IMG/VR virus record: IMGVR_UViG_3300045988_045464
Coordinates: 1 to 64,000 of that record
DNA: 64,000 nt
Source of the DNA: a virus
Direction: 5' to 3' (one strand)
Shown here: in pieces, positions 22,089 through 60,072 of the stretch
How the letters are laid out: each line of letters starts with the position of its first letter
Numbering within the stretch: the stretch's first letter is position 1
Translations under genes and position numbers: made by a program
Notes under the pieces: generated by a model
Database searches by the model: none
What the model saw: the letters and a program-made list of their open reading frames with translations, nothing else
What the model was told of the DNA's origin: nothing

Positions 22089-22091
22089 AAG

Positions 22092-22163
22092 TGCCCCATG
22101 TTGGACTCGAACCAACGCCATACAAGTTTAGAATTTGCTCTTCTACCACTGAAGTAATGGGGC
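22092..22163 (-). tRNA. candidate suppressor tRNA (anticodon CTA, reads UAG), tentative
   Basis: Acceptor gccccat/atggggc pairs 7/7; D arm cttc-agtggta-gaag; anticodon stem gcaaa/cttgt (G·U plus a 31-39 A·C mismatch) with loop ttCTAaa; T arm gttgg-TTCGAGT-ccaac. Confidence 0.45.
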
Positions 22164-24896: not shown

Positions 24897-26591
24897 TTAG
24901 GCCTTCACAGGCTTCTTCTGCACGCTTGCATTCTTCTTGACAACATCCTTCTCTAGAATCATCATATTAAGCAACTCTTGATTCATAGCATGCTTAAAAA
25001 TGTCTCTGGTGGTTTTAGGCACCTGGAACCTCTTCTCTCCAGTAATAAATGAGGATGTTGAATTATTAAGTCCATTTACTAAGAAGCAATTTGACACTCC
25101 TGGAACCAAAGCTACATTAGGTCTTCCTTTATATGCTAAAGGAACTCTCCAAATAATAACTTTGAACGCCCTTACAAATTCCTTACTGAAATTTGCTTTA
25201 AGCAATCTCTGTTTAAATTCCACGAATGCTTGGTTGTTCAACTTGGTAAAATATGTATGGTTAGTAATTACCACACAACCTCTAGGGAACTCTCCTTCAT
25301 CTACACCATAATCTTCTTTCATTTTACACAGCATTTCTGCTATATTAATAATAGAAGGATTCTGGCATAATGCTTCTTCTTTGTCAGATTTCCATTTCTC
25401 AATGACATTCTGACCTTTGAACTTACGTAGAACCATGTTATCTTCTAACACGGCATAGGAGTTTTTGAATATTGTAGGAAGTAGTTCAGAGTGATATAAA
25501 GCATATACTTTACCCAAACTGTAAGCAGATGTTTCGCTATTCTCTATCTCACCATTAGCAGAATGGCTTATATCTCTTACTACCAACAACGGAGCTACTC
25601 TATTGCGTTTAGCATTATCAACGAATACGTTGAAACTTGCATTAATAGAAGTTTCCATAAATTCTGGAATCTCTTCGGCAATTTTATCCAATCCATATGG
25701 TTTGAATAGAGTATGTAGAAATCCGCTATTAGAGGGCTTCTTACGGTTCTTCAACCAGTTCTGATACTTCTCTTTAAGACCTTGATGTTTGAGGAATTTA
25801 GAGCCTACTAGCTGTGCCAGCGCCTTTCCAGTAACAGTGTCAAAATCAATTTCCAAGAATTTCTTTTGACTGATTAACTGTTGCCATTGGGCTGCTTTCC
25901 CGCTATTCTTTATCTTCCTATATTTACGATAGGTTGAATAGTCTCCTTCATCCTTAGGTTTACCATAAAGGCCTTCCGCCAAGAATTTGGCTACTGTGTT
26001 ACGTGCTTTTGCCTCATCTGTCTTACATGCAACACTGGAACGAACACGGGGAAGATACTTCTTTACTAAATCACATGTCTGACCGTTGGCAAGACCTGCG
26101 AATATGACTTTCTTGAAGAAGTCCCAATCCAATCTGTGCTTAAAGCCATGGAGTTGAACATCTAAAGCCATCATAGTAATGAAATCTTTCCAGCATCCAG
26201 CTGCTGCAAAATAAGCAATGTTGGCATGGAATGTGGGTTTGTGATAGATTGCCAACCACAACATTCTCATTATACCTTCATTCTTCAAACCTTCTCCTTG
26301 CTGTGTATCAAGTTGTATAACTCCTTCCGGGGTAGTTATTCTACATTTACGAGTTATCATTCTCGTATATGCAGTAAACTTAGTACATAGTAATGGATTA
26401 GCTTTCCATAAAGGATACATATCTTTAGCCACTTGCACGTAGGTACGTGGCTGAAGACATTTCTTAAGATTAACAAACTGGTCTATGAATAACTGATTAT
26501 TATCCACAAACTTAGGTTTATTCTCATCCCGCCTTTGACGTGCGGCATTAGGGTAAGGCCTCCTTGGCCTTTGTGCTCCTTTCATTTCCAT
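24897..26591 (-). CDS. large hypothetical protein (564 aa)
   Basis: Long ORF with a basic N-terminus; no confident motif. Confidence 0.6.
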   Translation of the reverse strand: MEMKGAQRPRRPYPNAARQRRDENKPKFVDNNQLFIDQFVNLKKCLQPRTYVQVAKDMYPLWKANPLLCTKFTAYTRMITRKCRITTPEGVIQLDTQQGEGLKNEGIMRMLWLAIYHKPTFHANIAYFAAAGCWKDFITMMALDVQLHGFKHRLDWDFFKKVIFAGLANGQTCDLVKKYLPRVRSSVACKTDEAKARNTVAKFLAEGLYGKPKDEGDYSTYRKYRKIKNSGKAAQWQQLISQKKFLEIDFDTVTGKALAQLVGSKFLKHQGLKEKYQNWLKNRKKPSNSGFLHTLFKPYGLDKIAEEIPEFMETSINASFNVFVDNAKRNRVAPLLVVRDISHSANGEIENSETSAYSLGKVYALYHSELLPTIFKNSYAVLEDNMVLRKFKGQNVIEKWKSDKEEALCQNPSIINIAEMLCKMKEDYGVDEGEFPRGCVVITNHTYFTKLNNQAFVEFKQRLLKANFSKEFVRAFKVIIWRVPLAYKGRPNVALVPGVSNCFLVNGLNNSTSSFITGEKRFQVPKTTRDIFKHAMNQELLNMMILEKDVVKKNASVQKKPVKA

Positions 26592-26971
26592 CTCTTTGTT
26601 TAAATTTATTGTTATGAGAGTCTTTCTTTATTCTAAACAATAAACAAGCGGCATTACGGCAATCGGACATGCGTTAATCCGCTCGCCACTTACAGACCGT
26701 AATGCACACTTGACCAGGCAGGAAAGAGGTTTGCTTGGTGACCTATCTGCATGCTGATTATATAATGCAGACCGTGTAGATTCTCTCTTACACAATATCT
26801 ATAGTAGATTTGCACTACTGTTTTCTGATGCTTAATCAGGCGAACTCCTACTGTTCGAATAGATACAGGTTTCAACTCTTTGATATAGCCTTTAAGTCAT
26901 AGACACACTCCGGAGTATGTCTACTGGTTCTTCAGACCAAGTTTTGCTACCACCATTCGTCAATAGTGGAT

Positions 26972-28819: not shown

Positions 28820-28847
28820 AAAATTGATATTTAAACGTTAATAATAG

Positions 28848-28905
28848 TGGACCATCGCGGACTCGAACCGCGGTCTTCACAACTCTAAATAATAAGATTA
28901 CGTGT
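28848..28905 (-). other. orphan tRNA 3' half (T arm plus acceptor 3' strand) with no adjacent 5' half
   Basis: cgcgg-TTCGAGT-ccgcg followed by atggtcc and a discriminator. No complementary 5' acceptor strand lies within 100 nt. Confidence 0.4.
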
Positions 28906-29501
28906 GTCTCTATTTTATTACATCAGCTGTTGAGTTCAGCATGTAGGTAGTTTTACTAAGAAGCCGAGTGTTAATTCACCAATTACGTCTCCCTCGTAGG
29001 GCTACGACTTAGTTGTTCACAAACTACCAAACTGGGCTTGACCGAACGGTCGCTCCACCACTCCATTTACGTTGGAGAACGTTTCTATTTGTAACCCATA
29101 GATAGGTAGTGGAGATTTCAGCTTTACTAACCTTTGGCTTTCAAGTTAAGTGGGCTGCCCTATATGCTTCTTCCCACACCTCTTCTGTTTCTAGGTCTCT
29201 CCAATTAACCCGACTTAATCAATGACGTCCACTAATTAAGCCAGCAGCTTAGGCTGCCATTCTGTAAGTAGTGTTTCCACTTAAATTGCCGTATCATTAT
29301 TAAAGAGTTGGTACGAACTCTACACGTCTTACTACCCAGTCATCATGAATCAATTCCATGTATGGCCCATAAGTGGCATGATTATACTCTCATGCCAGGA
29401 GTCTCATTTAAAATAATGAATATAGCAGCCAGTATCCTCCTGTGCCACATTAAGTGGCGTACCCATTATGGACTTGGCAGCTTACGAGTTATTTGTTCCA
29501 T

Positions 29502-34749: not shown

Positions 34750-35004
34750 TTACTTCCAGATAAGTTTAGAGCCTTTGGAATATGCTGCATAAGATTCATC
34801 ATTAAGTACTACATATAATGAATCAAAGTCGTCTTTGCTTTCATTAAATGCATCCTCAATGTCCTTCTTATTGTCAGCTTCCTTGACTATTGTCTCTTCG
34901 TCTGGGTCAAAGTTCTCTCCTATTAAAGTGTACCAAGTACTTGGTAATTTCCCACAAATTGCATCAATTAGAGCATCTGTGAAATCGTCTTCGATGTAGT
35001 CCAT
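34750..35004 (-). CDS. hypothetical acidic protein
   Basis: 84-aa ORF. Confidence 0.4.
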   Translation of the reverse strand: MDYIEDDFTDALIDAICGKLPSTWYTLIGENFDPDEETIVKEADNKKDIEDAFNESKDDFDSLYVVLNDESYAAYSKGSKLIWK

Positions 35005-35096
35005 AAATATATATTATTATTGTCAACTCGAATAAAAGGTGAGTATGTATATCTATCACAGACCTACATACTCTTAATAATATTCATTTTACACAT

Positions 35097-35294
35097 TCAA
35101 ACGGTCTGAACTACGTACTTTAGTACTTTATATCTAGTCCCACTCCAAGTGGAGATTTGTTCAAGCAAATAATAGCCTACTGCTTCCTCAAACAGGGGAT
35201 TTGTCAGTTTATATCTTATACCATTATTTGCATGAATTGCATCGTTCCGATTACGTCCAAATACAGTTCTTAGTTTTGATTTCTTCGCTTTCAT
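35097..35294 (-). CDS. hypothetical protein
   Basis: 65-aa ORF. Confidence 0.35.
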   Translation of the reverse strand: MKAKKSKLRTVFGRNRNDAIHANNGIRYKLTNPLFEEAVGYYLLEQISTWSGTRYKVLKYVVQTV

Positions 35295-35401
35295 TTCACT
35301 ATTCGGCTAACTACATACTAACAAATATATCTGAATAAGCATGATAAAAAGAAAGACACAAATAGACTTTCTAAATGTGCCTTTCAATAAGAAGTACTTT
35401 G

Positions 35402-35884
35402 TTATTCCTTGCAATATGCAATAACATTGACGTTCATTTGCGAGCCGTCCCTTGCGACGCTTTCAAACGTTTCTATCGCCTTTGCGGTTACCTCTGTGCC
35501 CTGTAAATCTGCAAGACATTCGGCAATAGTTTTACTTTCAAACATATTGAAAATACATTTGTCTTTGTCCGCCTCTGGAAGAATGTCAACCGGTGTAATA
35601 CGTTTGCCGTTCTCCCTGTCATTGAAAGACCGGAACAAAGAGTTTATAGATACGTTTCTTGCCACTCCATTGACCTCAACGGCAACTTGAAAGAATGTAT
35701 TACCGTTTACAACTCCCTTTGTGATTGTTCCGTTAAATTCGTTAATTTCAGCGGGAAACTTCAATTTGTCGCCTACCTTGATAGAATCAGGATTCACACC
35801 TAAACGGTTTAAAGCCGCTGCAATTTCGTTCTTGCTTGCTTTCGGTAACTTCTTGTTAACTTCTTGTAATTCTGCTAAATTCAT
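35402..35884 (-). CDS. hypothetical protein (first gene of the leftward transcription unit)
   Basis: 160-aa ORF immediately left of the divergent control region. Confidence 0.5.
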   Translation of the reverse strand: MNLAELQEVNKKLPKASKNEIAAALNRLGVNPDSIKVGDKLKFPAEINEFNGTITKGVVNGNTFFQVAVEVNGVARNVSINSLFRSFNDRENGKRITPVDILPEADKDKCIFNMFESKTIAECLADLQGTEVTAKAIETFESVARDGSQMNVNVIAYCKE

Positions 35885-36195
35885 AGTTTAATAATTTATT
35901 AGTGAAACAATATAGAACGGGCTTATTTGCCCGTTCTGATTAGCTTTTAAATTAGATTTGCTTTAATTTCTTCACATTCTTCACGTGTGATTATACAACT
36001 CGTAGCATTAACTAAAACATAACCGTTTGAAAGATAAGTAAACATAACTCTAATAATTTTAAAATGAATATTATAAAGCAAAACCAAATGATATAAATTT
36101 TTTGATTTTCTCCAAACATGGGTGAGGGGTGTGAAGGGTAACACGACTGTCGTATCCGCAATATACACAAATCTTGCAATATTCACCTAGCATCC

Positions 36196-36409
36196 GAGTT
36201 GGCAATATATAATATGACAACCCACCCCGGGAGTGGGAGGGGTGTGATTTTGAGCACCCGTACTTGTGAGTTGGCAATATATATTAATTTCTATTCATCT
36301 TACTAATTGCAAGCAAGCCCCGCAGGGGCGCAGATTGCCACAGCGCGTCATGAAGTTCCGAGTTGGCAATATACTTAATATTAACTGTGAATTTGAGTTG
36401 GCAATATAT
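36196..36409. promoter_or_regulatory. four direct copies of GAGTTGGCAATATA (at 36196, 36268, 36360, 36395) in the divergent intergenic region
   Basis: Exact 14-15-nt motif repeated four times on the + strand, interspersed with short GC-rich islands in otherwise >75% AT DNA. It sits between leftward and rightward gene blocks. Confidence 0.55.
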
Positions 36410-36540
36410 AATATATATTAATAATTATATTACCATTTGGTAATATTGAAATATATAACTAATTTTGTATTGTCAAATTAAATAGTAATATATTTGCGAA
36501 CTTAAATCGCAGAATTTAATAACAATTAAAATTTATAACA

Positions 36541-36795
36541 ATGGCCAAAGAAGTTAAAGACTTAACAAGTAAAAAAGTAGATGAAGTAAAAATATTAAAG
36601 ACTAGTTTGTCAGAATGTCCAGTAAATACTGATTTAGGATGTAATGAATCAAAGGCAACTAACTGGGTGAAGTTAGACAATAAAACAACAGATGTAAAAT
36701 TAGAATTATTAAATAAATTGCAAGACGGACTAGCTAATGGAGCTGGTATTGAATATTTAATGCAACTATCTTGCATTTATAATAACATTCGCTAA
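36541..36795 (+). CDS. hypothetical protein (first rightward gene)
   Basis: 84-aa ORF. Confidence 0.5.
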   Translation: MAKEVKDLTSKKVDEVKILKTSLSECPVNTDLGCNESKATNWVKLDNKTTDVKLELLNKLQDGLANGAGIEYLMQLSCIYNNIR

Positions 36796-36797
36796 TA

Positions 36798-37172
36798 ATG
36801 AGACATATTGATAGAATTAATAAGCAGTATGAAGAGAAGGAAGTTAAATTGCTATACGATAAAGCTGTAGCATTAATGAATCTTCTTAGTGATGAGGAAT
36901 ATGAACAAGTAATTACAGACAATGCAGATATATTTAAATTAGCATCTCATCCCGAGAAGGGTGAGTTCTATTTGCAAGATAAGCACAACTTAGTCCAGAT
37001 TGTAGATATATTTAGTAAATTTATCAAAACTAAAGGTCTATCTAAGGACGAATTTAAAATAATGACTCTAGATGAAGTTAAAGAGTATATGGTTGATGTT
37101 ATTAATGATATCACATCATTCGAACCAGATGAGCTATTCACGATAGTAAAGAACTTAGAGAAACTTCAATGA
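36798..37172 (+). CDS. hypothetical protein
   Basis: 124-aa ORF, tightly packed. Confidence 0.5.
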   Translation: MRHIDRINKQYEEKEVKLLYDKAVALMNLLSDEEYEQVITDNADIFKLASHPEKGEFYLQDKHNLVQIVDIFSKFIKTKGLSKDEFKIMTLDEVKEYMVDVINDITSFEPDELFTIVKNLEKLQ

Positions 37173-37480
37173 AACTAGAACAGATACCAGGTGATTATGA
37201 TAATGTAGACCAGAGAGCTCTAGAATTATTAGAGACTAATGACTATGAATTAGCAGAGTATATGAGGGATTATATAAAGGAATTATATGCTAACATACAT
37301 ATGAGAGACTTCTATATTAGAAACCTTAAGGATGAAATACTTCATACACTCAAACATAGAGACTCTATAAGTGGTGAGGAGCTATTACAAATACTAAATA
37401 AGGTAGCTCCATGGGATATGGAATATGATGGCAGATGGCAAACTAGAGACTATTTAGCAAGAGCAAAGGCTAATCAATGA
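37169..37480 (+). CDS. hypothetical protein
   Basis: 103-aa ORF with start/stop overlap. Confidence 0.5.
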   Translation: MKLEQIPGDYDNVDQRALELLETNDYELAEYMRDYIKELYANIHMRDFYIRNLKDEILHTLKHRDSISGEELLQILNKVAPWDMEYDGRWQTRDYLARAKANQ

Positions 37481-37583
37481 TAACACAAGAAGTAGAATTA
37501 ATAGAGGAAGCATTATATAGGAATGCATACATATATCCAGGCTGGAAGTATTACCTACCTGGATTACTAAAGACAATATATTT

Positions 37584-37820
37584 ATGAGAGGTAAAGACAT
37601 AATAGTAACATTCAATGAGCCTTGGTATAATGACTATAACAAACGATTATACACTCAATTATCCGAACAAATGATTAGAGAAGAGATTGAGAGAGTGCAT
37701 AAAGAACCAATCATTACTAATACTGCATTTGATATGGCAGTAGACAAGGCTTTCTTAGAGTTACTGCATGACAACAAGGATTTAATTAATATTACAGAAC
37801 GATACAAGAACCATGAGTAA
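37584..37820 (+). CDS. hypothetical protein
   Basis: 78-aa ORF. Confidence 0.45.
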   Translation: MRGKDIIVTFNEPWYNDYNKRLYTQLSEQMIREEIERVHKEPIITNTAFDMAVDKAFLELLHDNKDLINITERYKNHE

Positions 37821-38460
37821 AATAGCAACAGAATTAGAAGCTAGGACTATAGGGGGGGGGACTCTCTCGGTAATTGATAACAAGTGCTGTACTAAAGCCA
37901 GGGCACTTGAATTAGGATGTCAGATTAAAAGTGGATTTAGTTATACCGATAATCAGTTAGTGGAGTTAGAAGGTATAAAGGCAGCTATAACTGCTCCAAA
38001 TGTAATCCTTCATTATGGTTGGGAGGATATGCCAATTAATAATATACAGCAATTTAGAGTACGTTTCTCATTTGTTAATCAGAGTTCAGTAGATGGAGAA
38101 CCATTTAAGTATTCTGATAATACTACTTACTTTACAATTACTCCAAGATTAGAGCAAGGAGAACAAACGTACACTAAGACTTTAGCAAACCCTCTTAAAT
38201 ATTACTTAGAGAAACTAGCACTTCCTAACCAAGACCCATATAATACACCTGTTTGGATACGTTTTGAGGGATACATGATGCTTAGGCAAGTGTCTAAAAT
38301 TACATTAGCAGTAGATTCTCAATCTGAGAATTGGGCAGAAGGAGTAACATTCCCTTCATCTGGAAGGTGGGTCAAAATGAATAATTCTGGTAGAGTATTT
38401 AGATTTACTGGTGGGGAAATAGACCTAAACATAGAACTGTATACAGCGTCAGCGCAATGA
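37813..38460 (+). CDS. hypothetical protein of the MSKI(A/V)TE...GGG paralogue family, with an in-frame G9 tract
   Basis: Starts MSKIATELEARTIGGGT; the codons for GGG are a 9-G homopolymer at 37852..37860. Confidence 0.55.
   Translation: MSKIATELEARTIGGGTLSVIDNKCCTKARALELGCQIKSGFSYTDNQLVELEGIKAAITAPNVILHYGWEDMPINNIQQFRVRFSFVNQSSVDGEPFKYSDNTTYFTITPRLEQGEQTYTKTLANPLKYYLEKLALPNQDPYNTPVWIRFEGYMMLRQVSKITLAVDSQSENWAEGVTFPSSGRWVKMNNSGRVFRFTGGEIDLNIELYTASAQ
37852..37860 (+). repeat. homopolymeric G9 tract (coding GGG, in frame)
   Basis: Nine consecutive G in >65% AT sequence. Confidence 0.9.
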
Positions 38461-38654
38461 TTAAAGTAACTGATAATAAAGAAATAAAAGAGACAGTCTT
38501 AGCAGGACTTAAAAGGAATAAAGAGAAATATGGTAAGAAGTACTGCCCATGTTCCTTAGTAAGAGATGAAGATACAGTATGTATGTGTAAAGAGTTTAGG
38601 GAAATGGAAGAAGGAACTTGCCATTGCCAACTTTATGTTAAAACTAAAGACTAA
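38457..38654 (+). CDS. Cys-rich small protein (CPCS...CMC...CHC)
   Basis: 65-aa ORF, likely zinc-binding. Confidence 0.45.
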   Translation: MIKVTDNKEIKETVLAGLKRNKEKYGKKYCPCSLVRDEDTVCMCKEFREMEEGTCHCQLYVKTKD

Positions 38655-38820
38655 TAATTATGGATGAATTAAAGAACCAATTAGCACAGTATTTATGTAG
38701 CCAAATTCATAATGGCACTAAGGATTTGATTGAATTAATTGAATCAGAAGACCTTATTAATGAACAGTGGTATAAGAACTGGAAGGAAGAGATGAGAATC
38801 TTACTACAGGAGAAGTAATT

Positions 38821-39060
38821 ATGATAATACTTAGTGGGAACTGTCCTAGGCATCATAATGCCATTATGTTGGAACTTACAGACTTTGATGATAGTAAAAT
38901 TTCCTATCTAGCTAGAATATCTAGAGGACATCATGTTGATACTCTGTTAGTTCCTAGGGAATATAAAGATACATTTGAATCTACAGAACTATATAAAGTA
39001 TTACTGCCTAATATTAGTATAGGCGGTGTGCAATTTGCTAAAATATACTATTATGATTGA
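38821..39060 (+). CDS. hypothetical protein
   Basis: 79-aa ORF. Confidence 0.4.
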   Translation: MIILSGNCPRHHNAIMLELTDFDDSKISYLARISRGHHVDTLLVPREYKDTFESTELYKVLLPNISIGGVQFAKIYYYD

Positions 39061-39283
39061 TGTTAGAAGGACATTAGAGAATTTACATCAGATACTTCCA
39101 AACTTATCAATAGAGGACTTATTTAGAGTTCTTGATAACATAGTAGAGATTCCACAATTTAACGTAGGACAGACAACTACTATACGTAGAGATGATAGTG
39201 GCTGGAGACCATATGACACAGGTACATTTATATCTTATGCTAGTAATGGAATAACACTTAGTGATGAAGGAACTTGTAAATAA
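39026..39283 (+). CDS. hypothetical protein
   Basis: 85-aa ORF. Confidence 0.4.
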   Translation: MCNLLKYTIMIDVRRTLENLHQILPNLSIEDLFRVLDNIVEIPQFNVGQTTTIRRDDSGWRPYDTGTFISYASNGITLSDEGTCK

Positions 39284-39470
39284 TTGGAATGAGAAGCATC
39301 CCGAATACGTATTGGTACACGGGATGTATTCTTATGTAGACAACGGTCAGTCTAAGGATATGCACATGCTTACTATCTTTAATAAGGATAATGAATGTAT
39401 ATGTGAATATAAAGGAGAAGATTTTATTAAGTTGTATAATACATTAGAAGAAGAATGGGAAGATGCTTAA
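39261..39470 (+). CDS. hypothetical protein
   Basis: 69-aa ORF. Confidence 0.4.
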   Translation: MMKELVNNWNEKHPEYVLVHGMYSYVDNGQSKDMHMLTIFNKDNECICEYKGEDFIKLYNTLEEEWEDA

Positions 39471-39494
39471 TGTTAATATAATAGTAAGTGAATT

Positions 39495-39776
39495 ATGGAG
39501 AATAAATTAAACGTACCAAAGCTGGAATATAAAACAGGAGAGCCTATGTGGGTTCATTGGGATAATAGATACGTATTGCGTGGAGGACATATACTAGGAA
39601 AATGCCCAGATGAGAATTTGATAACCACAGTGGGCTACTTGGCATATATGGACGACAAATCAATAATATTGGGAAGAGGTATTGAGAATCATTGTGATGA
39701 GGACGGTACTCGCAGAGTAAAAGATACAATACACATACCAATGAGCTTAGTAGCTAGTTTTGGAAGTTTTGATTGA
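39495..39776 (+). CDS. hypothetical protein
   Basis: 93-aa ORF. Confidence 0.45.
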   Translation: MENKLNVPKLEYKTGEPMWVHWDNRYVLRGGHILGKCPDENLITTVGYLAYMDDKSIILGRGIENHCDEDGTRRVKDTIHIPMSLVASFGSFD

Positions 39777-39782
39777 TGAACT

Positions 39783-40637
39783 ATGATAAATGAGGAGTAT
39801 AATAAATGGCTAATCCTTTACTTTGATATGCAATCTATAAATTTACAGTTCAATTGTAATGATATAGCATCATCACTAAAGGCACAAAGAGATAAGATAA
39901 AACAATTCTGTATTGACTGTCTAACAGGGGTAAAACATCAGGCTGACAGCTTTCTATTTGACACTAATGCTCATATATTCTCTACTCCTAAAACTAGAGG
40001 ACTGTTGTTCTCATATGAAGAATATCCCATTCTTGATACTGATACTACTAAAGTAGTTGACGGAAAGTATCCCTTAGACTATGCTACTGAAATAATAGAA
40101 TCTAATTTGGATGATATCATTGACTATATAGTACAATCGGGAACAGAAACATACAATGATAGAACCAGTAGAGGATTTGGGAATAGGTGGAGTCCTTATA
40201 ATGAGGAGGAACGTAAACAAGTAATTAAACTGTTTAACTCTGGAACTTGGTATGATACACTTGGGTCCTTAAAGCATTTATATTATGAAAGAACCCCCAA
40301 AGGCTTAAGAATGTGTAACCTGACTGGCGAACCCTTACAAGCCAATGTTCTAGAACATATAGAAGATATTATTTTGAACATAAAAGACCATTATGAAACA
40401 TTTGCCGTTGTTCCTAGAGGTAAATCTAAATTACAAGTTTATATGACAATTAGCAATGGAACAAATGGAGCTGAAGGATGTATCATTAATCCCATGGAAG
40501 ATGTGCTGAATGTACTTAAGGACTTACGGAAATACAAAGGAGTAACTTGGTCACAGCTACTGGAAGTTGGGATAGATAATGCAGATGATTTATATTGGTG
40601 GTACGTGACATTCTCTATAGACACTACAGCTATATAA
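39783..40637 (+). CDS. hypothetical protein (284 aa)
   Basis: Long ORF at the end of the rightward block. Confidence 0.55.
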   Translation: MINEEYNKWLILYFDMQSINLQFNCNDIASSLKAQRDKIKQFCIDCLTGVKHQADSFLFDTNAHIFSTPKTRGLLFSYEEYPILDTDTTKVVDGKYPLDYATEIIESNLDDIIDYIVQSGTETYNDRTSRGFGNRWSPYNEEERKQVIKLFNSGTWYDTLGSLKHLYYERTPKGLRMCNLTGEPLQANVLEHIEDIILNIKDHYETFAVVPRGKSKLQVYMTISNGTNGAEGCIINPMEDVLNVLKDLRKYKGVTWSQLLEVGIDNADDLYWWYVTFSIDTTAI

Positions 40638-40819
40638 TAAATTGATACCAGCCAGTAGATGCTAGGCACAAAGCCTAAGATAGTTTTTACATCTTCGTCT
40701 TGGTGGTCTACGCCAGTGCGCTCTGACGTATTCTCACTTACCGAGACGGAATCTTATTATAAACAACAAAGCCCGAACTTAGTTTAATTACTAGGCTCGG
40801 GCTTTATTATATCAACCTG

Positions 40820-41907
40820 TTATGTATTAATTTTAATTACTTGTCTAGAATAGTCAGGCAAGTCAAGTATTTTATTACTTTGGTCAAATGTAGAAGCTGT
40901 ATTCTGCAATAGGAGTCTTTTAGTTCCATTCGAACCAATTGCATACCAATTTGAATCTACATATATTAAATCAGTAAGAGTATATTCACCTAGTGTAGAT
41001 GTAGTCCAATTATTACCCCTATCTGTAGACACACTCTTCATATTATTTCCTATAAGCATAAATGTATTAGTCCCAGCTTCATTTGCATACAAACCTTTAG
41101 TCAAAGCAGTTAGTTGTGGTCTAGTGGTTGCAGCAGTCCATTGAGTTCCAGTTGGGTTAGTACTAACGTATGTATAATTACTTGTAGTGCTATATACTAC
41201 ACTTCTTGGCGAAGAATGAAACCCTTGTATTACTGCACTTGGTGTAAACATTCCTGGAGTATAATAAGTAAGAGAATCCGGTAAAGATGTAGCTATGAAG
41301 GTATATATTCTAGCTCCTCCCTGATACGATGCCCCAACACAGCAGTAATCATAAGGCCCAGTTGATATGCTACGGACTGGACCTACAACACTACGCTCCT
41401 TTACTGTACCGTCATCATACACTATAATAACATAGTTCTTACCGTCTCCTCCTGCTCCTTTATAAAATACCCAGCCAGTAGAGAATCTAGCCAAGTGAGC
41501 ATAACCATAAGCTTTTACAGTATCTTTGTATTTTAATTCCCACTGTTTGGTAGACTGATTAACTACATACAATCCTCCAAGCATAGACAATGCTCCAATT
41601 GCTTCACCTCCTCCAGCTATGTATATAAAATCCTCATGGCCGTCTATAGCTGGAATTTGAGCATAGGTACCACCGCCAGCAAAGTATAAACTACCTGTCT
41701 CCGCATTAATAAGGAATAAGTCTTTATTTACAACTATATCTTCTTCTTTAACTAACTGGTTAGACCTATAATTATTAGGTTGTTTAACTACCTGTCCCCA
41801 TAAGGACAATAGTAAGTCATAATAGGGACAATACCCCCCCCCTTCCCATAATCTATTGACATTCCAGTCAATTCATTCAATTTGTCTTCTGTTACTATTT
41901 TACTCAT
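40820..41907 (-). CDS. tail-fibre-like protein (Thr/Ser/Gly/Tyr-rich); N-terminal leader out of frame at a G9 tract
   Basis: The 329-aa ORF (40820..41809) has no ATG. An ATG at 41907 encodes MSKIVTEDKLNELTGMSIDYGKGGG and then meets the 9-G tract (+ strand 41834..41842). Ten G would fuse it in frame to the 329-aa ORF. The NQLVKEEDI motif is shared with 46933..47400. Confidence 0.5.
41834..41842 (-). repeat. homopolymeric G9 tract on the coding strand (out of frame; +1 G restores the full-length fibre)
   Basis: Nine C on the + strand, 22 codons after the ATG at 41907. Confidence 0.85.
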
Positions 41908-54957: not shown

Positions 54958-55927
54958 CACAATAAACTAAAGCCGACTATAAATTCCGCAAAATCGGTGA
55001 AGACTAACGTGATTAATCACTTATTAAATTTAATATTATGACTAAGAAGGAACAATTAAAATTTATTGAGGATAACTATCCCTTATACAACAATCATATA
55101 TCTAACAGAAGAATAAGACATACATTCTTCGATACAATCGAAACTGAACTACAAGCTTATCTGCTTGGATTTTATGCCGCTGATGGCAGTATTGATGAGA
55201 AACGCAAAACCTTAAGAGTTCATTTGCAGTCTGGAGATTCTGAAATAGTGTACTTATTTAAAGATAGTATAAGTCCAGACGCTAGAACGTTTACCGTAGC
55301 ACCACATATTGTAACTGGAAGAAACGGTATGAAAGTAAATGCCCATGCATCATTTGGAGTTGACATTACTAGTTCCAAATTATGTAATGCCTTAGTAGAC
55401 TTAGGGATAGGATATAATAAAAGCGTAGCAGAACTCAAAATTCCAAGCATTCCTGAGGACCTTGTGAAACATTTCATCAGAGGTTATTTTGATGGAGATG
55501 GGTGTATTACTGGATGGTTAGCTACAGAGAAGGGTAAAGCTGACAGAGTTAGATATAAGTTTGATATATGTAGTAAAACAATTACTATGTTGTCTGATAT
55601 ACAGAAGGTTCTTTCTAAGAATGATATTAATGTAAATATTAATTATCTTAAACGTGATGATATGTATAGGATATCTACTTCATCTAAAAGCGAAGTGAGT
55701 AAACTATATCATTATCTATATGATGATGCTAATTTCTATTTATCAAGAAAGTTTAATAAGTTTAGTTACTATGTTAATACCGAGGTAAGTCAGCTCATCG
55801 CTGACCACCGTAACGCGCAGGAGGTGAACGTTAATGAGAGTAATAATCCTCCCACGAGTGCGGAACATTCTGTAAAAGAATGAATATGTGCGCTGACCTT
55901 ATAGGAAACTATAAGAAGTATAGGATA
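54958..55927 (+). other. candidate group I intron (~970 nt) interrupting the terminase gene and carrying a homing endonuclease ORF
   Basis: Exon 1 ends with an in-frame stop right after ARGVG. A free-standing LAGLIDADG ORF fills the gap. The exon-2 reading frame opens at 55847. Splice boundaries are approximate. Confidence 0.5.
55038..55883 (+). CDS. LAGLIDADG homing endonuclease (double-motif)
   Basis: Two LAGLIDADG motifs: LLGFYAADGSI and IRGYFDGDGCI. Confidence 0.8.
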   Translation: MTKKEQLKFIEDNYPLYNNHISNRRIRHTFFDTIETELQAYLLGFYAADGSIDEKRKTLRVHLQSGDSEIVYLFKDSISPDARTFTVAPHIVTGRNGMKVNAHASFGVDITSSKLCNALVDLGIGYNKSVAELKIPSIPEDLVKHFIRGYFDGDGCITGWLATEKGKADRVRYKFDICSKTITMLSDIQKVLSKNDINVNINYLKRDDMYRISTSSKSEVSKLYHYLYDDANFYLSRKFNKFSYYVNTEVSQLIADHRNAQEVNVNESNNPPTSAEHSVKE

Positions 55928-57640
55928 AAAAGCCTATACGGTAACAAAGTGTTTAGTGAAATTGCAGCATCTTTAGGAGTTAGGTTATATACAACTGTTA
56001 GAGGTTCACATACAGTATATGTAGCATTTACCGAGAAATTCGTTAGTGACGTACTTCGTAAATGCTGGGAGCAACTTGAGTATTTAAATGCTGATACAGA
56101 AGGCGGCATGAGACACCTAAGACAGAAATATAATTCTGATATGCATAAGAGAGCTTCTCTTCTTACTAAAGACAGAGAAGAATTTGGATTCATGTCAGAC
56201 ATTATTGGCTTCGTAGTAGATGTTCCTCGTAAACTCCGTGGAGACCGTGTGGATAGATTGTTCTTTGAAGAATCTGGTTCTAACCCAATCCTAGTAAAGA
56301 CTTACTTACAGAGTACAGCTCTTGTAGAAATTCTAGGTAATAAGTTTGGAACTAGATTTGTGTGGGGAACAGGTGGAGACCAGGGACCTGCACTTGACGG
56401 ACTTAGTAAGATGTTTTATAATCCAGCTGGATATAATTTCTTACCTTATAAACATAACCATACTAAAGACGGGTCTTATGCTTTTACCTCATTCTTCATA
56501 CCTGCCTATACATTCGTAGCAGCAAATGGATATGTAGACGATAGAGGAGTTACTAATACTGCGAAGGCTAAGAAGTTCTATTTAGACCAAAGAGAAGCTC
56601 TACTAGCTAACCCGAAGGAGCATTTAATTGCATGTGCAGAGTTCTGTTTTACTCCTGATGATGCTTTGGCTCTAGAAGGAGATAACCAGTTTAATACTGT
56701 ATTGTTAAGTGAGCAACTTGCTAATATTAAATTACATAAACTGGGACCACATATTGATGTAGGCCAGTTAGAGTATAATTTTACTAACAACCAGCACACA
56801 GAGGAAGCAATTGATAGTGTAAGATTTGTTAGTAATCCTAAAGGTAAGGTTAAGATACTTGAACATCCGATTAGAGGAGAACATGGAGCTGTACCTAGAA
56901 ATTTATATGTTGCTGGTATTGACGGTATTGATATGGGTGGTGAAGACACTTCTGATAAGACTCAAGACCCTTCTGATTTCTGTGTAGTAGTTAAAAAGAG
57001 AGCTTATGGGTTAGATGAACCTAAAATAGTGTGCTATTATAGGGACAGACCTAAGACTTTACGTGAAGCACATATGACATGTCTTAAGATATTGCAGTAT
57101 TACGATTGTCAGGCTGTTCTTGAATCTACTAGAATGTCTACTCTGCAATTCTTTAGAGAGAAACATAAAGAGAATAGACATTTGATGAGAAGACCTAGAG
57201 CTACTCAATCTGACATACAAGGAGGTCGTAGTAAACAATTCGGAGCTCCTGCTACTGAAGTAGTAATTAGGCATCAATTAGATTTAATAGCTCAACATAT
57301 AGAAGATTATTGTCATAATATATGGTTTGAAGAAATTCTAGAAGAAGCAATTAAATACAGTTATGAGAATAAACGTAAGTTTGATATTATAGCTGCATGG
57401 GGTATGTGCGAACTAGGAGACGAGGAATTAATGGGAGTAGTTCCTAAAGAAATGGACAGTCCTAATAACAAACTAAGACCTTTCGGTTATTGGGTTGACG
57501 AAAGAGGAATTAGACATAAAGGAGTTATTCCAGAGAAGCAACAGATAGTACCTAAGTTTAATTTATGGCCTACACAATACGATGACCCTACAAGAATTAG
57601 AAGTAGCAATCAGAGATTTATTCAAACAGATTTATCATAA
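55880..57640 (+). CDS. terminase large subunit, exon 2 (remainder of the ATPase plus the nuclease domain); the true exon start is probably near 55928
   Basis: ...YRIKSLYGNKVF supplies the K-S of the Walker A. A Walker B-like VDRLFFEESGS is present, and the C-terminal region has acidic RNase H-like nuclease motifs (VAGIDGIDMGG, CVVVK). Confidence 0.65.
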   Translation: MNMCADLIGNYKKYRIKSLYGNKVFSEIAASLGVRLYTTVRGSHTVYVAFTEKFVSDVLRKCWEQLEYLNADTEGGMRHLRQKYNSDMHKRASLLTKDREEFGFMSDIIGFVVDVPRKLRGDRVDRLFFEESGSNPILVKTYLQSTALVEILGNKFGTRFVWGTGGDQGPALDGLSKMFYNPAGYNFLPYKHNHTKDGSYAFTSFFIPAYTFVAANGYVDDRGVTNTAKAKKFYLDQREALLANPKEHLIACAEFCFTPDDALALEGDNQFNTVLLSEQLANIKLHKLGPHIDVGQLEYNFTNNQHTEEAIDSVRFVSNPKGKVKILEHPIRGEHGAVPRNLYVAGIDGIDMGGEDTSDKTQDPSDFCVVVKKRAYGLDEPKIVCYYRDRPKTLREAHMTCLKILQYYDCQAVLESTRMSTLQFFREKHKENRHLMRRPRATQSDIQGGRSKQFGAPATEVVIRHQLDLIAQHIEDYCHNIWFEEILEEAIKYSYENKRKFDIIAAWGMCELGDEELMGVVPKEMDSPNNKLRPFGYWVDERGIRHKGVIPEKQQIVPKFNLWPTQYDDPTRIRSSNQRFIQTDLS

Positions 57641-57893
57641 AGAATATGTGGCTAAATTAAAGCTAGAAGAGCTACAAACTGCCGAGGGGACACATAGGGG
57701 TTATAAGTTAACACTTGGCATGAATAATATAGACAAGCCACTTATTATATCGTTTGAGGGTGGTGAAGTAGCGTATCTTAAATTTCTTAGACAGGAATTA
57801 AGAGATAGAAGATTAGGCGACACACATTATTTCCTAGGATATAAACAATATAACGGATTAGAGAGTTGTAATGAGTGCACAGAACAGGAGTGA
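57582..57893 (+). CDS. hypothetical protein (overlaps the terminase 3' end; start uncertain)
   Basis: 103-aa ORF. Confidence 0.3.
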   Translation: MTLQELEVAIRDLFKQIYHKEYVAKLKLEELQTAEGTHRGYKLTLGMNNIDKPLIISFEGGEVAYLKFLRQELRDRRLGDTHYFLGYKQYNGLESCNECTEQE

Positions 57894-60072
57894 TGAGTAC
57901 TTAATGGAGCATATTGATAAGGCAGTGTCAGAATTAGTATTTCCTAAGTACAAATTACAGAAAGCATATAATTATTATAATGGATATAGAGATGCCGAAC
58001 AATATAGGTATCTAGAAGAGAATTTTGGAATAGGTAATCCTACTTCTATAGAATTTACTCCTCTTATCAGGAAGCATGTTGATGCTTTACTTGGAGAATA
58101 CCTAGGTACTCCATTACTGCCTAAAGTGTCATGCAAGGATAAAGAAACTATATCTAAGATATCTAGAGATAAGGAATTACAAATTAATAAAGAAGTATAT
58201 CAATACTTACAACAACATCTTAACAATCAGATACTAGCGTTCTTAGGAGGACAAGAAGTAACTGATAAGGCTGTAGAGGCTCAACTTAATAAGTTAGTAG
58301 AAGATATTAATAATAGCTTTGTTAGCGAGTATGAAATAGCTGCACAGAATGTTGTTGAGTATATAATCCAATCTAGAGATATTAACTTACTTACTAAGTT
58401 AAAGAACCTGTTACTTGACTTACTAGTAACTGGCATGAGCTTTTACCAGGTTCATCCTAGTAGGAAGAGAACTAATATAGAAATAGAGGTATTAGACCCA
58501 CGTAATGTATTCGTTGATAGAAATCCAGAATCTGTATATGTTAGAGATAGCTACAGAGTAGTTATTAGACGTTGGTTAACTAAGCAACAAATACTTAATA
58601 AATATGGTCCTCAACTAGATACAAGTAGTATCAATGAATTAGAGGAGATGTTTGAGGGATATTACGATAGTAGTTATATATATGTACGCGCTATGAGCAA
58701 TCAAGCTACTGGAGCTCCTATTACAGACGGACTCGAGGCGGGTAAAGAAGTAATACCTGGATTCCCTACCGACTACTATGAGACTTACAATTATAAGTTA
58801 ATACCTGTGTTTGAAGTTGAGTGGATTGATGTTGATAAAGAAGGAGAAGATTATGTAGAGAATAGATATGAAGGAGTTAAAATCGGAGAATCTATTTACA
58901 TTCTTACTGGTAAGTCTCCTGATGTAGTTAGAACTAAAGATAATCCTACACACTGTGGATTGTCAGTTAATGGTTTGTTCTTTGTAAACAGAAGTAACGA
59001 ACCATATTCACTTGTGCTTGCATGTTCACATCTTCAAGACAAGTATGATTTGATTACTTTCTTTAGGGACAATGTAATTGCTAATAGTGGTACTAGTGGA
59101 GACTGGATTGACTTTAGTATGCTACCTATGGCTCTTGGTGATGATTTGACTGAAAGATTGCAGAAATTCATTGCCTATAAGAAGACTGGTGTGGCTCCTA
59201 TTGATACTTCACAAGAAGGTAGGGCATTTAACAACAATACTTCTTTTGCTGGATTCGATGACTTATTAAAAGCTGATACTATTCAGGCATTTAATATGGC
59301 GTTGCAGATGTTAGAAGAGCAGACATCATCTATTACTGGAGTGTTTAGAGAGAGATTAAATGGAATAGAAACCAGGGATGCTGTTAGTAATGTTAAGGCA
59401 GGTATGAGAAACTCTTATATCATTACTAAATCTTACTATCAACAAATGGATACTTTGGCAGAGGATATTCTGATTGATTCTCTTAATTGTGCTAAGAAGG
59501 TATGGAAACATAAACCACTTACTGGAACTTTAGTGCTAGGTGACAAACTACAGAAAGTATTTACTGCTCTCCCTGAACATTTTACTTTTACTGACTATGA
59601 TATTCATGTAATAGCTAGTAGTAGAATTATGGAGGAAATGCAGAACATGCAACAGTTAATGATTGAGTTCATTAAGAGTGGTCAATTAGACCCAGACATA
59701 GCTATGGAGTGTATGACTGCCAGAAGTATGACTGAACTTAAGTCTAAATTGTCTAAGGCATTTCAAAAGAGAAGAGAAGAAACTCAGAACACTGCACAGA
59801 TGCAACAACAGAACGAAGAGCTACAGAAGCAACTTCAAAAGGCGGAACAAGAGAAAGAGCAGCTTAATAATAAGATTGCATCTCTTAATGAAGCTAAGAT
59901 TGCTATTGATAGGCAGAAGGTTGAATATGACTATGAGATTGGCCTTATTAAGGCTAACGCTGATAGAGATTATAAGCAGAGTACTTCTGACAATGACACC
60001 AAAAGAACAGATATTGAGATAGCCCAATTGTACGATGGGAATCAGCAGAATAACGAAGTGAAGAACGTATAA
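57871..60072 (+). CDS. putative portal protein
   Basis: 733-aa ORF immediately downstream of the terminase, with a C-terminal coiled coil (QQQNEELQKQLQKAEQEKEQL). The call rests on position and size. Confidence 0.5.
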   Translation: MSAQNRSDEYLMEHIDKAVSELVFPKYKLQKAYNYYNGYRDAEQYRYLEENFGIGNPTSIEFTPLIRKHVDALLGEYLGTPLLPKVSCKDKETISKISRDKELQINKEVYQYLQQHLNNQILAFLGGQEVTDKAVEAQLNKLVEDINNSFVSEYEIAAQNVVEYIIQSRDINLLTKLKNLLLDLLVTGMSFYQVHPSRKRTNIEIEVLDPRNVFVDRNPESVYVRDSYRVVIRRWLTKQQILNKYGPQLDTSSINELEEMFEGYYDSSYIYVRAMSNQATGAPITDGLEAGKEVIPGFPTDYYETYNYKLIPVFEVEWIDVDKEGEDYVENRYEGVKIGESIYILTGKSPDVVRTKDNPTHCGLSVNGLFFVNRSNEPYSLVLACSHLQDKYDLITFFRDNVIANSGTSGDWIDFSMLPMALGDDLTERLQKFIAYKKTGVAPIDTSQEGRAFNNNTSFAGFDDLLKADTIQAFNMALQMLEEQTSSITGVFRERLNGIETRDAVSNVKAGMRNSYIITKSYYQQMDTLAEDILIDSLNCAKKVWKHKPLTGTLVLGDKLQKVFTALPEHFTFTDYDIHVIASSRIMEEMQNMQQLMIEFIKSGQLDPDIAMECMTARSMTELKSKLSKAFQKRREETQNTAQMQQQNEELQKQLQKAEQEKEQLNNKIASLNEAKIAIDRQKVEYDYEIGLIKANADRDYKQSTSDNDTKRTDIEIAQLYDGNQQNNEVKNV

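What the first reader, a model, noticed from the sequence alone, without database searches (positions are those of the whole stretch)
35885..36540. Divergent control region with four GAGTTGGCAATATA repeats and GC-rich islands
The 650-bp gap between the leftward and rightward gene blocks carries four exact copies of a 14-nt motif (spacings 72, 92 and 35 bp). All are on the + strand upstream of the rightward genes. Between them lie short GC-rich palindromic patches (for example cccaccccgggagtggg and ccccgcaggggcgc). This looks like a set of phage-specific promoters or iterons of a replication origin rather than sigma-70 elements.
Basis: seen in the sequence. Interest (0 to 1): 0.6.

Follow-up and report, generated by a model that had tools for sequence, protein, structure and literature searches.

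The report
Repeat-and-hairpin control region of a crAss-like phage
Four exact 14-base repeats and several conserved GC-rich hairpins sit between two diverging gene blocks of a large gut crAss-like phage; the region is better conserved than its neighbouring genes, so it is functional, but sequence alone cannot say whether it is a set of phage-specific promoters, a replication origin or operator sites.

Summary
GAGTTGGCAATATA occurs exactly four times (36196, 36268, 36360, 36395, all on the + strand) and nowhere else in the window. None of 100 shuffles reached the observed count.

The window is a roughly 180-kb Zeta-type crAss-like phage from the human gut. Relatives down to about 60% protein identity keep the region. 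Its conserved blocks are 80-100% identical in DNA, against 60-75% for the flanking genes.

The GC-rich patches are real hairpins. The 36309-36338 stem-loop pairs in 77 of 77 cells, with two independent compensatory changes.

The repeats are not host-type promoters. A canonical Bacteroidetes promoter (TTTG..TAnnTTTG) lies downstream at 36436-36496. The repeats are also not a genome-wide promoter class, because they are confined to this one locus.

They sit immediately left of the most A+T-rich, least stable 100 bp of the window. One lineage has inverted the early gene block and lost copies 3 and 4 and one hairpin.

Best reading (about 0.35): tandem phage-specific rightward promoters that launch hairpin-bearing transcripts. 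Rivals are origin iterons with an unwinding element (0.25), operators (0.2), and an RNA-level motif (0.1).

It is a new member of a known kind and of moderate interest.

The parts
36196..36209 (+). Repeat copy 1, GAGTTGGCAATATA. It is followed by TAATATGAYAA and then hairpin A.
   Evidence: It is kept in the window-like, L147 and L165 lineages. In L263, L047 and L113 it is degenerate (GTTTGGAATATATAAT, GTTTGCAATATATAAT, GTTAGCAATATATAAT).
36268..36281 (+). Repeat copy 2.
   Evidence: The first base is G or A in some strains, and L148 and L156 read GAGTCGGCAAT. In L155 it is degenerate (GAATTGGTAATATA) and in L263 it is GAGTGCGACATATA.
36360..36373 (+). Repeat copy 3. This is the best-conserved copy; the core GAGTTGGCAAT is present in every lineage that keeps the divergent gene layout.
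   Evidence: It always lies 23 nt after the ATTGCCA of hairpin E3.
36395..36408 (+). Repeat copy 4. The 35-bp spacing from copy 3 is kept in the window, L147 and L155 lineages.
   Evidence: It is absent in L263.
36076..36145 (.). Block E1: AAGCAAAAC..TTGATTTTCTCCAAAC..GGTGAGGGGTGTGAAGGGTAACAC. This G-rich block is conserved in all lineages and probably carries or flanks the leftward promoter.
   Evidence: It is 82-90% identical to L147, L155 and L263, against 60-67% for the adjacent 160-aa gene.
36147..36195 (.). Hypervariable short-repeat segment. It includes two degenerate GCAATAT[AT]CAC copies at 36158 and 36176. The copy number of an 18-nt unit varies, and some strains carry alternative cassettes.
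   Evidence: In 42 close haplotypes 65% of its positions segregate.
36221..36259 (+). Block E2, with alternative GC-rich stems: A is CCCAC/GTGGG (36221-36237); B is CACCCC/GGGGTG (36223-36244), followed by TGATTTT; C is GGGTG/CACCC (36240-36259).
   Evidence: In stem A the loop varies, and in L155 an A:T pair becomes C:G. Several C-to-T changes give U:G pairs on the + strand.
36309..36338 (+). Hairpin E3: GCAA-GC-aa-GCCCC-gca-GGGGC-GC-aga-TTGC, inside an invariant block at 36298-36343.
   Evidence: All 77 of 77 cells pair, two pairs show compensatory changes (A:U to G:C; C:G to U:A in two backgrounds) and one is a U:G wobble. The other variable columns are unpaired.
36396..36503 (.). The most A+T-rich, least stable DNA of the window. 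It contains the palindrome ATATTACCA-tt-TGGTAATAT (36427-36446), whose arms resemble the repeat core.
   Evidence: stability -99 kcal/mol against a mean of -125 and sd of 6.2 for 100-bp windows. for the palindrome.
36436..36496 (+). Two overlapping host-type Bacteroidetes promoter matches: TTTG 36436-36439 with TAATTTTG 36460-36467, and TTTG 36464-36467 with TATATTTG 36489-36496. They lie just upstream of the first rightward gene (36541).
   Evidence: phi14:2 middle promoters have the same architecture. This element stays with the early genes in the inverted L260 and L261 lineage.
35913..35938 (.). Bidirectional terminator-like hairpin between the 32-codon ORF and the 160-aa gene.
35947..36045 (-). 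32-codon ORF with several very different alleles. It is absent in L155 and L263.
   Evidence: In close haplotypes 77% of its positions segregate.

Best explanation
The four GAGTTGGCAATATA copies are recognition sites for a lineage-specific factor, not the host sigma-A. They lie in the roughly 500-bp control region between the leftward block (small genes plus the tRNA array) and the rightward block of small early-looking genes of a Zeta-type crAss-like phage. I commit to this reading: they are tandem, rightward, phage-specific promoters. Each copy ends in a -10-like TATAAT, TATATT or TATACT and is followed by 12 or more A+T-rich bases that melt easily. Transcripts from copies 1 and 2 would begin with the conserved GC-rich hairpins E2 and E3, which could serve as a stabilising or regulatory 5' structure or as a short ncRNA. 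Copies 3 and 4 would fire into the least stable DNA of the window and on into the early genes, which also have an ordinary host-type promoter.

Shown: the repeats, their conservation and fixed orientation, the hairpins with compensatory changes, the host-type promoter downstream, and confinement of the motif to this locus.

Inferred: that transcription starts at the repeats; which polymerase reads them (virion RNA polymerase, or host polymerase with a phage factor); and that the hairpins act as RNA.
For: The repeats are exact and non-random, share one orientation, and are kept in relatives down to about 60% protein identity.

In 42 close haplotypes only 3 of the 56 repeat positions vary.

The non-coding blocks are more conserved than the flanking genes: 80-100% against 60-75% nt identity.

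The repeats do not fit the host promoter pattern, which sits separately downstream. Something other than plain host sigma-A must therefore read them.

Hairpins E3, A and X keep their pairing through compensatory changes. Uncompensated stem changes are mostly C-to-T, giving U:G on the + strand: about 7 events, against about 2 that fit only the - strand. This suggests rightward transcripts. No host-type promoter lies upstream of those hairpins, but a repeat copy does.

In L260 and L261 the retained unit (copy 1', E2, copy 2', X) ends at a strong terminator in that same orientation.

Against: The motif occurs nowhere else in the window or in related contigs of 79-147 kb. It would therefore be a promoter class used at a single locus.

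Copies 1 and 2 degenerate in distant lineages while the hairpins downstream of them stay conserved.

The L260 and L261 lineage has lost copies 3 and 4 and hairpin E3 from in front of the early genes, at least within the 8 kb seen. They are therefore dispensable for early gene expression there.

Motif-like half-sites also occur inverted: ATTGCCA in E3, the 36427-36446 palindrome, and ATTGCCAAATTTCAAGTTGGAAT in L263. This is more typical of operators.

The strand inference rests on few events. For phi14:2, no common motif was found upstream of early transcripts. No transcription data exist for this phage.
Confidence: 0.35

Rival explanations
1. Replication origin. The repeats are iterons bound by a phage initiator. 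The adjacent 100-bp A+T tract is the DNA-unwinding element. The GC-rich hairpins are strand-specific priming or loading signals.
Against: The spacing is irregular and not helically phased: 72, 92 and 35 bp, or 6.9, 8.8 and 3.3 turns, and 108, 124 and 35 bp in L147. There is no DnaA box with 1 mismatch or fewer. No initiator gene was recognised nearby. The GC skew follows gene orientation everywhere, so it adds nothing. The L260 and L261 inversion separates the A+T tract from the remaining repeats and hairpins and removes copies 3 and 4. The fold matches are below any safe threshold.
Confidence: 0.25
2. Operator array. A phage regulator binds TGG(C/T)AATAT sites, both the four direct copies and the palindrome that overlaps the -33 element of the host-type promoter. 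It thereby times or balances leftward against rightward transcription.
For: All six TGG[CT]AATAT sites of the window lie at 36200-36446. The palindrome ATATTACCAttTGGTAATAT overlaps the TTTG -33 element at 36436-36439 of a good host-type promoter. Inverted motif copies exist in several lineages. The location between divergent promoters is the classical position for operators.
Against: The palindrome is not conserved in L147, L155 or L263. The four copies are identical, whereas graded operators usually differ from one another. No helix-turn-helix or other DNA-binding protein was detected among the neighbouring genes. The apparent helix-turn-helix in the 160-aa protein is LysM-like at best.
Confidence: 0.2
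3. RNA-level motif. The whole region is one long structured rightward leader or ncRNA. GAGUUGGCAAU is a single-stranded motif between hairpins, bound by an RNA-binding protein or nuclease.
For: Hairpins with compensatory changes alternate with the repeats. Wobble pairs favour the + strand. Abundant early intergenic RNAs are known in phi14:2.
Against: No promoter was recognised upstream of block E1 on the + strand. The 321-nt region does not fold better than shuffles on either strand (z of 0.23 and 0.06). No Rfam family matches it.
Confidence: 0.1
4. Chance, or a recent local duplication without function.
For: Unequal crossing-over does occur here: L230 carries a duplication and L233 and L194 differ in 18-nt unit copy number.
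Against: None of 100 shuffles reached the observed count. The repeats are conserved across lineages whose flanking genes are only 60-75% identical. The sequences between the copies are unrelated to one another, so the copies are not products of a tandem duplication.
Confidence: 0.02

Closest known systems
Tandem early promoters of lytic phages (for example T7 A1/A2/A3; the N4 virion-RNA-polymerase promoters P1-P3)
   Same: Several same-orientation recognition sequences are clustered upstream of a block of small early genes. As in N4, they are confined to one end of the early region and sit near short GC-rich hairpins. E3 has a 5-bp stem and a 3-nt loop.
   Different: No transcription start has been mapped. 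The polymerase is unknown; crAss-like virion RNA polymerase is a two-barrel enzyme unrelated to the N4 and T7 enzymes. The hairpins are not at a fixed distance from the repeats and differ in loop size. The comparison with T7 and N4 rests on my own knowledge.
Iteron-type origins (lambda ori, plasmid oriV such as RSF1010 or RK2) and promoter-primed origins (T7 phi1.1A/B plus an A+T-rich tract; T4 ori(uvsY) and ori(34))
   Same: Direct repeats lie next to a very A+T-rich, easily melted tract, with GC-rich palindromes nearby. Two closely spaced copies (35 bp) lie directly before the A+T tract.
   Different: The spacing is irregular. No initiator gene or DnaA box was found. One lineage separates the repeats from the A+T tract. 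The comparison rests on my own knowledge of those origins.
Bacteroidetes sigma-A promoters (-33 TTTG, -7 TAnnTTTG), as used by crAss-like middle and late genes
   Same: One such promoter pair lies in the same intergenic region (36436-36496).
   Different: The repeats themselves do not match this pattern on either strand. The reverse complement TATATTGC lacks the TTTG.
Lambda nut boxB and HK022 put RNA elements
   Same: Short conserved GC-rich stem-loops lie between an early promoter region and long operons. The E3 core resembles boxB (a 5-bp GC stem).
   Different: E3 has a 3-nt loop rather than a GNRA-like pentaloop. There is no boxA. No N-like protein is known here, and the transcribed strand is unproven.
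The long early intergenic ncRNAs of crAss-like phage phi14:2
   Same: A long non-coding region lies next to early genes of a crAss-like phage.
   Different: There is no sequence or repeat similarity. The phi14:2 region is 1.7 kb and has no comparable repeats.

Membership tests
Sigma-70-type promoter | TTGACA-like and TATAAT-like hexamers 16-18 bp apart | tested here: not met
   Only copy 4 gives a 10-of-12 match. The region holds 6 such sites against 7.6 +/- 2.7 in shuffles. The TTGGCA of copies 1-3 has no -10 at the right distance.
Bacteroidetes sigma-A promoter | TTTG at -33 and TAnnTTTG at -7, about 19-21 bp apart | tested here: not met
   No copy contains or is followed by TAnnTTTG at that spacing. 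The pattern is instead found at 36436-36467 and 36464-36496 and in phi14:2 middle promoters.
Phage-specific promoter class (T7-like logic) | The same conserved sequence upstream of many transcription units across the genome | tested here: not met
   The motif is confined to one locus in the 64-kb window and in related contigs of 79-147 kb. No k-mer is shared with other intergenic regions. About 115 kb of the genome outside the window was covered only by the exact-match scan.
Phage-specific promoter class (T7-like logic) | A transcription start at a fixed distance from the motif | not testable with these tools
   No transcript data are available.
Iteron origin | Three or more direct repeats in one orientation | tested here: met
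   There are four exact copies, and 3-5 in relatives.
Iteron origin | Regular, helically phased spacing | tested here: not met
   The spacings are 72, 92 and 35 bp, equal to 6.9, 8.8 and 3.3 turns. They are 108, 124 and 35 bp in L147.
Iteron origin | An adjacent A+T-rich unwinding element | tested here: met
   36396-36503 is the least stable 100 bp of the window.
Iteron origin | An initiator gene next to the repeats, or DnaA boxes | tested here: not met
   Pfam, PHROG and PDB searches gave no hit for the neighbouring proteins. There is no DnaA box with 1 mismatch or fewer. A divergent initiator cannot be excluded.
Structured RNA (any Rfam family) | A match to a curated covariance model | tested here: not met
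   No credible match in 35000-37500 at an E-value up to 10. Nothing in the region at the gathering threshold.
Conserved hairpin (RNA or single-stranded DNA) | Pairing kept through compensatory substitutions | tested here: met
   In E3, 77 of 77 cells pair and two pairs carry changes on both sides; 2 of 500 shuffles reach the observed score. Stem A shows A:T to C:G in L155. The stem of the GC-rich island X differs between L155 and L263 but still pairs. The sample is small, at 7 distinct sequences.
Lambda-type nut site | A boxA sequence plus a boxB hairpin with a GNRA-like pentaloop | tested here: not met
   There is no boxA-like sequence. The E3 loop is 3 nt.

The most novel reading that the evidence does not exclude
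The repeats are the first sequence-defined promoters of a crAss-like virion RNA polymerase, for which no promoter motif is known. Alternatively, in a T7- or T4-like arrangement, they are promoters whose transcripts prime replication in the adjacent unwinding element. The conserved GC-rich hairpins would then be part of the recognition or priming signal.
Probability: 0.15. Interest if true: 0.75.

Novelty: new member of a known kind. Interest (0 to 1): 0.42.

Why it matters
[quoted passage not shown] How their early transcription and replication start is largely unknown. In the one studied model, phi14:2, no promoter motif was found for the virion RNA polymerase, and no origin has been mapped.

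This region gives a compact, conserved and testable set of candidate elements for the large Zeta-type lineage: an 11-14-nt recognition sequence, three hairpins with compensatory changes, and an unwinding tract. Natural variants already exist that separate these parts, namely the inversion in L260 and L261 and the 3-5-copy variants.

If the region turns out to be an ordinary operator or iteron array, it is still useful as an annotation anchor for these genomes.

Tried and rejected
Host-type promoter reading of the repeats, on both strands. Rejected.

Sigma-54 reading (TGGCA..TTGC). Rejected by eye, because there is no GC at the -12 position.

Genome-wide promoter class. Rejected.

One large structured RNA. 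Neither strand of 36100-36420 folds better than shuffles.

Known RNA family. None found.

Coding explanation. The ORFs overlapping the region (51, 68 and 79 codons) are broken by indels of 32-36 nt and by whole cassettes in relatives.

Pairing of ATTGCCA (in E3) with the TGGCAAT of copy 3. The 23-nt spacing is constant. However, the T-to-C change in L263 that restores the E3 outer stem breaks this pairing, so I do not count it as a helix.

Physical genome end or pac site. Many assembled contigs end inside the region, but at scattered positions: 36047-36195 on one side and 36368-36489 on the other. One of them ends in a sequencing adapter. I read this as assembly breakage at a variable, A+T-rich locus.

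ParB/parS-like partition site. The 268-aa protein 3 kb away is named 'ParB-like nuclease' by one source, but it has no Pfam hit here, no ParA partner was seen, and its relatives are spread over unrelated phages.

Similarity to the phi14:2 early non-coding region. None.

Helix-turn-helix in the 160-aa protein. Not supported. There is a weak LysM-like match, and fold matches to single-stranded-DNA-binding proteins are weak.

Genome-contig scan with a degenerate E3 pattern.

Literature. Five searches and several papers on Zeta and Epsilon crAss-like phages mention nothing about this region.

Full report
**What the window is.** The 64-kb window belongs to a large phage.
- It carries 27 tRNA calls on the - strand between 5.5 and 30 kb, including a CTA suppressor.
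- It encodes a large terminase (55880-57640) and a portal protein (57871-60072), both with PHROG matches.
- The terminase is 28-30% identical to those of human-gut crAss-like phages. It is 100% identical to the unannotated record MT835470.1 from human faeces, but that record stops short of the region studied here.
- Related contigs are 172-186 kb long.
- Genes run leftward from 1 to 35884, rightward from 36541 to 40637, leftward again to about 49.4 kb, and then rightward. GC skew follows this pattern exactly.

**The observation.** GAGTTGGCAATATA occurs four times exactly, at 36196, 36268, 36360 and 36395, all on the + strand.
- With up to 2 mismatches there are 7 matches against 0.76 expected, and no shuffle reaches 7.
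- The shared sequence extends to 17 nt.
- After each copy comes TATAAT, TATATT or TATACT, read in register with the last bases of the motif, and then an A+T-rich stretch.
- The looser TGG[CT]AATAT occurs six times in the window, all between 36200 and 36446. Two of these form the palindrome ATATTACCA-tt-TGGTAATAT at 36427-36446.
- GCAATAT[AT] occurs 8 times, 6 of them in this region.
- The 'gap' also holds a bidirectional terminator-like hairpin (35913-35938) and a 32-codon ORF on the - strand (35947-36045).

**Relatives.**
- Sixteen IMG/VR contigs carry near-identical copies of the region with 3-4 exact repeats; single-base changes account for the 'missing' ones.
- More distant relatives were reached through three neighbouring proteins:
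  - L151-L154 (88%), L155 (65%) and L147-L150 (60% identity) of the 268-aa protein.
  - L165 (86% identity) of the 160-aa protein.
  - L263 (60%) and L260/L261 (62%) of the 124-aa early protein.
- A metagenome scan with a hairpin pattern added 41 more copies.
- In all, there are 46 distinct full-length versions of the region.

**Conservation.** Against L147, L155 and L263, nucleotide identity is as follows.

| Segment | Identity |
|---|---|
| Flanking genes | 60-75% |
| E1 (36070-36146) | 82-90% |
| Copy 1 + E2 + copy 2 | 80-88% |
| E3 (36298-36343) | 91-100% |

Among 42 close haplotypes the fraction of segregating positions differs sharply by segment.

| Segment | Segregating positions |
|---|---|
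| The four 14-mers | 5% |
| Tract 36374-36459 | 2-5% |
| E1, E2, E3 | 15-28% |
| 36147-36195 | 65% |
| 32-codon ORF | 77% |

The region is therefore a mosaic of strongly constrained elements and hypervariable segments. The latter include copy-number changes of an 18-nt unit and whole alternative cassettes.

**The repeats across lineages.**
- L147 keeps four copies, with spacings of 108, 124 and 35 bp.
- L155 keeps copies 3 and 4, 35 bp apart, plus a degenerate copy 2.
- L263 keeps one canonical copy (copy 3), three TTGGAATAT variants and one inverted TTGGCAAT.
- L230 has five copies, produced by unequal crossing-over between the two GAGGGGTGTGA sequences.
- The invariant core is GAGTTGGCAAT.

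**The hairpins.**
- E3 (36309-36338) is an extended stem-loop. In seven distinct versions all 77 pair cells are standard pairs. Two pairs changed on both sides: A:U to G:C in the L263 type, and C:G to U:A in L165 and L171. One pair is a U:G wobble. The remaining variable columns are unpaired. Sliding the partners drops pairing to 34-47%.
- Stem A of E2 (CCCAC/GTGGG) keeps its stem while the loop changes, and in L155 it has C:G where the others have A:T.
- RNAalifold prefers the overlapping stem CACCCC/GGGGTG, with little covariation. The fold of E2 is therefore unresolved.
- The more distant lineages carry a further GC-rich island, here called X, whose stem differs in sequence between L155 and L263 but still pairs.
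- Uncompensated stem changes are mostly C-to-T on the + strand. They give U:G on the + strand and A.C on the - strand. There are about seven such events, against about two of the opposite kind. This leans towards + strand hairpins, in RNA or in single-stranded DNA, but it is not decisive.

**What the repeats are not.**
- They are not sigma-70-type promoters.
- They are not Bacteroidetes sigma-A promoters. Good matches to TTTG-N20/21-TAnnTTTG lie at 36436-36467 and 36464-36496, directly before the first rightward gene.
- I extracted the regions upstream of the phi14:2 middle genes named in the preprint 10.1101/2020.03.07.982082. They have this same host-type architecture.
- The repeats are not a genome-wide class. 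Nothing similar occurs elsewhere in the window. In related contigs of 79-147 kb that the exact scan reached, the 14-mer occurs only in this cluster.
- No Rfam family matches, and the region as a whole does not fold better than shuffles.

**Context that bears on mechanism.**
- The 100 bp right of copy 4 (36396-36503) is the most A+T-rich and least stable stretch of the whole window.
- There is no DnaA box and no boxA, and the repeats are not helically phased.
- None of the neighbouring proteins has a recognisable DNA-binding or initiator domain.
- Intergenic regions of the leftward tRNA block show few host-type promoters. Much of that 35-kb block may therefore be driven from this region.

**A natural experiment.** In L260 and L261 the early gene block is inverted.
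- The early genes keep only the A+T tract and the host-type promoter.
- The side of the 163-aa gene keeps E1, a copy-1-like GCAATATATA, E2, a degenerate copy 2, X and one TTGGAATAT.
- E3 and copies 3 and 4 are absent from the 6-8 kb available.
- Three conclusions follow. Copies 3 and 4 and E3 are not indispensable for early gene expression. The A+T tract can be separated from the remaining repeats. The retained unit ends at a strong terminator when read in the window's + orientation.

**Weighing.** Four observations point to sites read by a phage-specific protein:
- the four copies are identical within a genome;
- repeat variants change together within a lineage;
- the orientation is fixed;
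- each copy has an A+T-rich 3' flank.

On that basis I weigh the readings as follows.
- **Promoters, 0.35.** This is the reading I favour. The hairpins appear to be read on the + strand, they have a repeat copy but no host-type promoter upstream, and irregular spacing is normal for tandem promoters.
- **Iterons plus unwinding element, 0.25.** This is supported by the extreme A+T tract and the copy-number changes. It is weakened by the spacing, the lack of an initiator and the inversion.
- **Operators, 0.2.** This is supported by the inverted copies and by the palindrome over the -33 element. It is weakened by the palindrome's lack of conservation.
- **RNA-level motif, 0.1.** This remains possible.

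No literature on this region was found.

Noticed in passing
window 26862-26969 (-), next to 24897-26591 (-): There is a strong match to the Rfam family RAGATH-34 (119.8 bits, gathering score 60.7). It lies directly upstream of a 564-aa gene that hits PHROG 850 ('RNA-binding protein') and, weakly, DUF2828. This may be an RNA and RNA-binding-protein pair inside the tRNA block.
   Followed up: partly
window 10397-11464 (-): This gene matches the adenylosuccinate synthetase family (Pfam PF00709, E-value 8.5e-35). It could be a PurZ-like enzyme for 2-aminoadenine DNA, or an ordinary purine-metabolism gene.
   Followed up: no
window 5502-30007 (-); 22091-22163: There are 27 tRNA calls, nearly a full set. 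One has a CTA anticodon (an amber suppressor, labelled 'Pyl' by ARAGORN). Two of the calls overlap on opposite strands at 15067-15170.
   Followed up: no
window 28820-29501: This 682-nt stretch has no called gene. It holds a tRNA T-arm-like hairpin (CGCGGACTCGAACCGCG, 28856-28872) and two more GC-rich hairpins. It may be a missed or decayed tRNA, or another RNA.
   Followed up: no
window 55038-55883 (+): A LAGLIDADG homing-endonuclease gene sits immediately upstream of the large terminase gene and overlaps it. The terminase match in a relative (MT835539.1) is split into 3 pieces, which hints at introns or inteins.
   Followed up: no
L260 3580-6070 and L261 1490-3982, compared with window 36400-40820: In one lineage the whole early gene block, together with its terminator, is inverted relative to its flanks. 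One breakpoint lies in the A+T tract right of the last repeat.
   Followed up: partly
window 36147-36195 and the same place in L194, L223, L233, L151, L254: This is a hypervariable segment. The 18-nt unit AAATCTTGCAATATTCAC is present 1, 2 or at least 3 times. Other strains carry unrelated cassettes, for example repeated GTGGGAGTGTTACAGAA.
   Followed up: partly
window 40638-40819: This non-coding stretch between convergent genes is richer in GC than its surroundings. It ends in a strong bidirectional terminator (AAAGCCCGA...TCGGGCTTT) and may hold another small RNA.
   Followed up: no
L205 (human-gut contig OZIA01001488.1), last 45 nt: The contig runs from GAGTTGGCAATATATAATAT straight into a Nextera adapter (CTGTCTCTTATACACATCT...). 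This is an assembly artefact in a public record.
   Followed up: no
window 35947-36045 (-): A 32-codon ORF lies between the control region and the 160-aa gene. Close relatives carry several very different alleles, and it is missing altogether in L155 and L263.
   Followed up: partly
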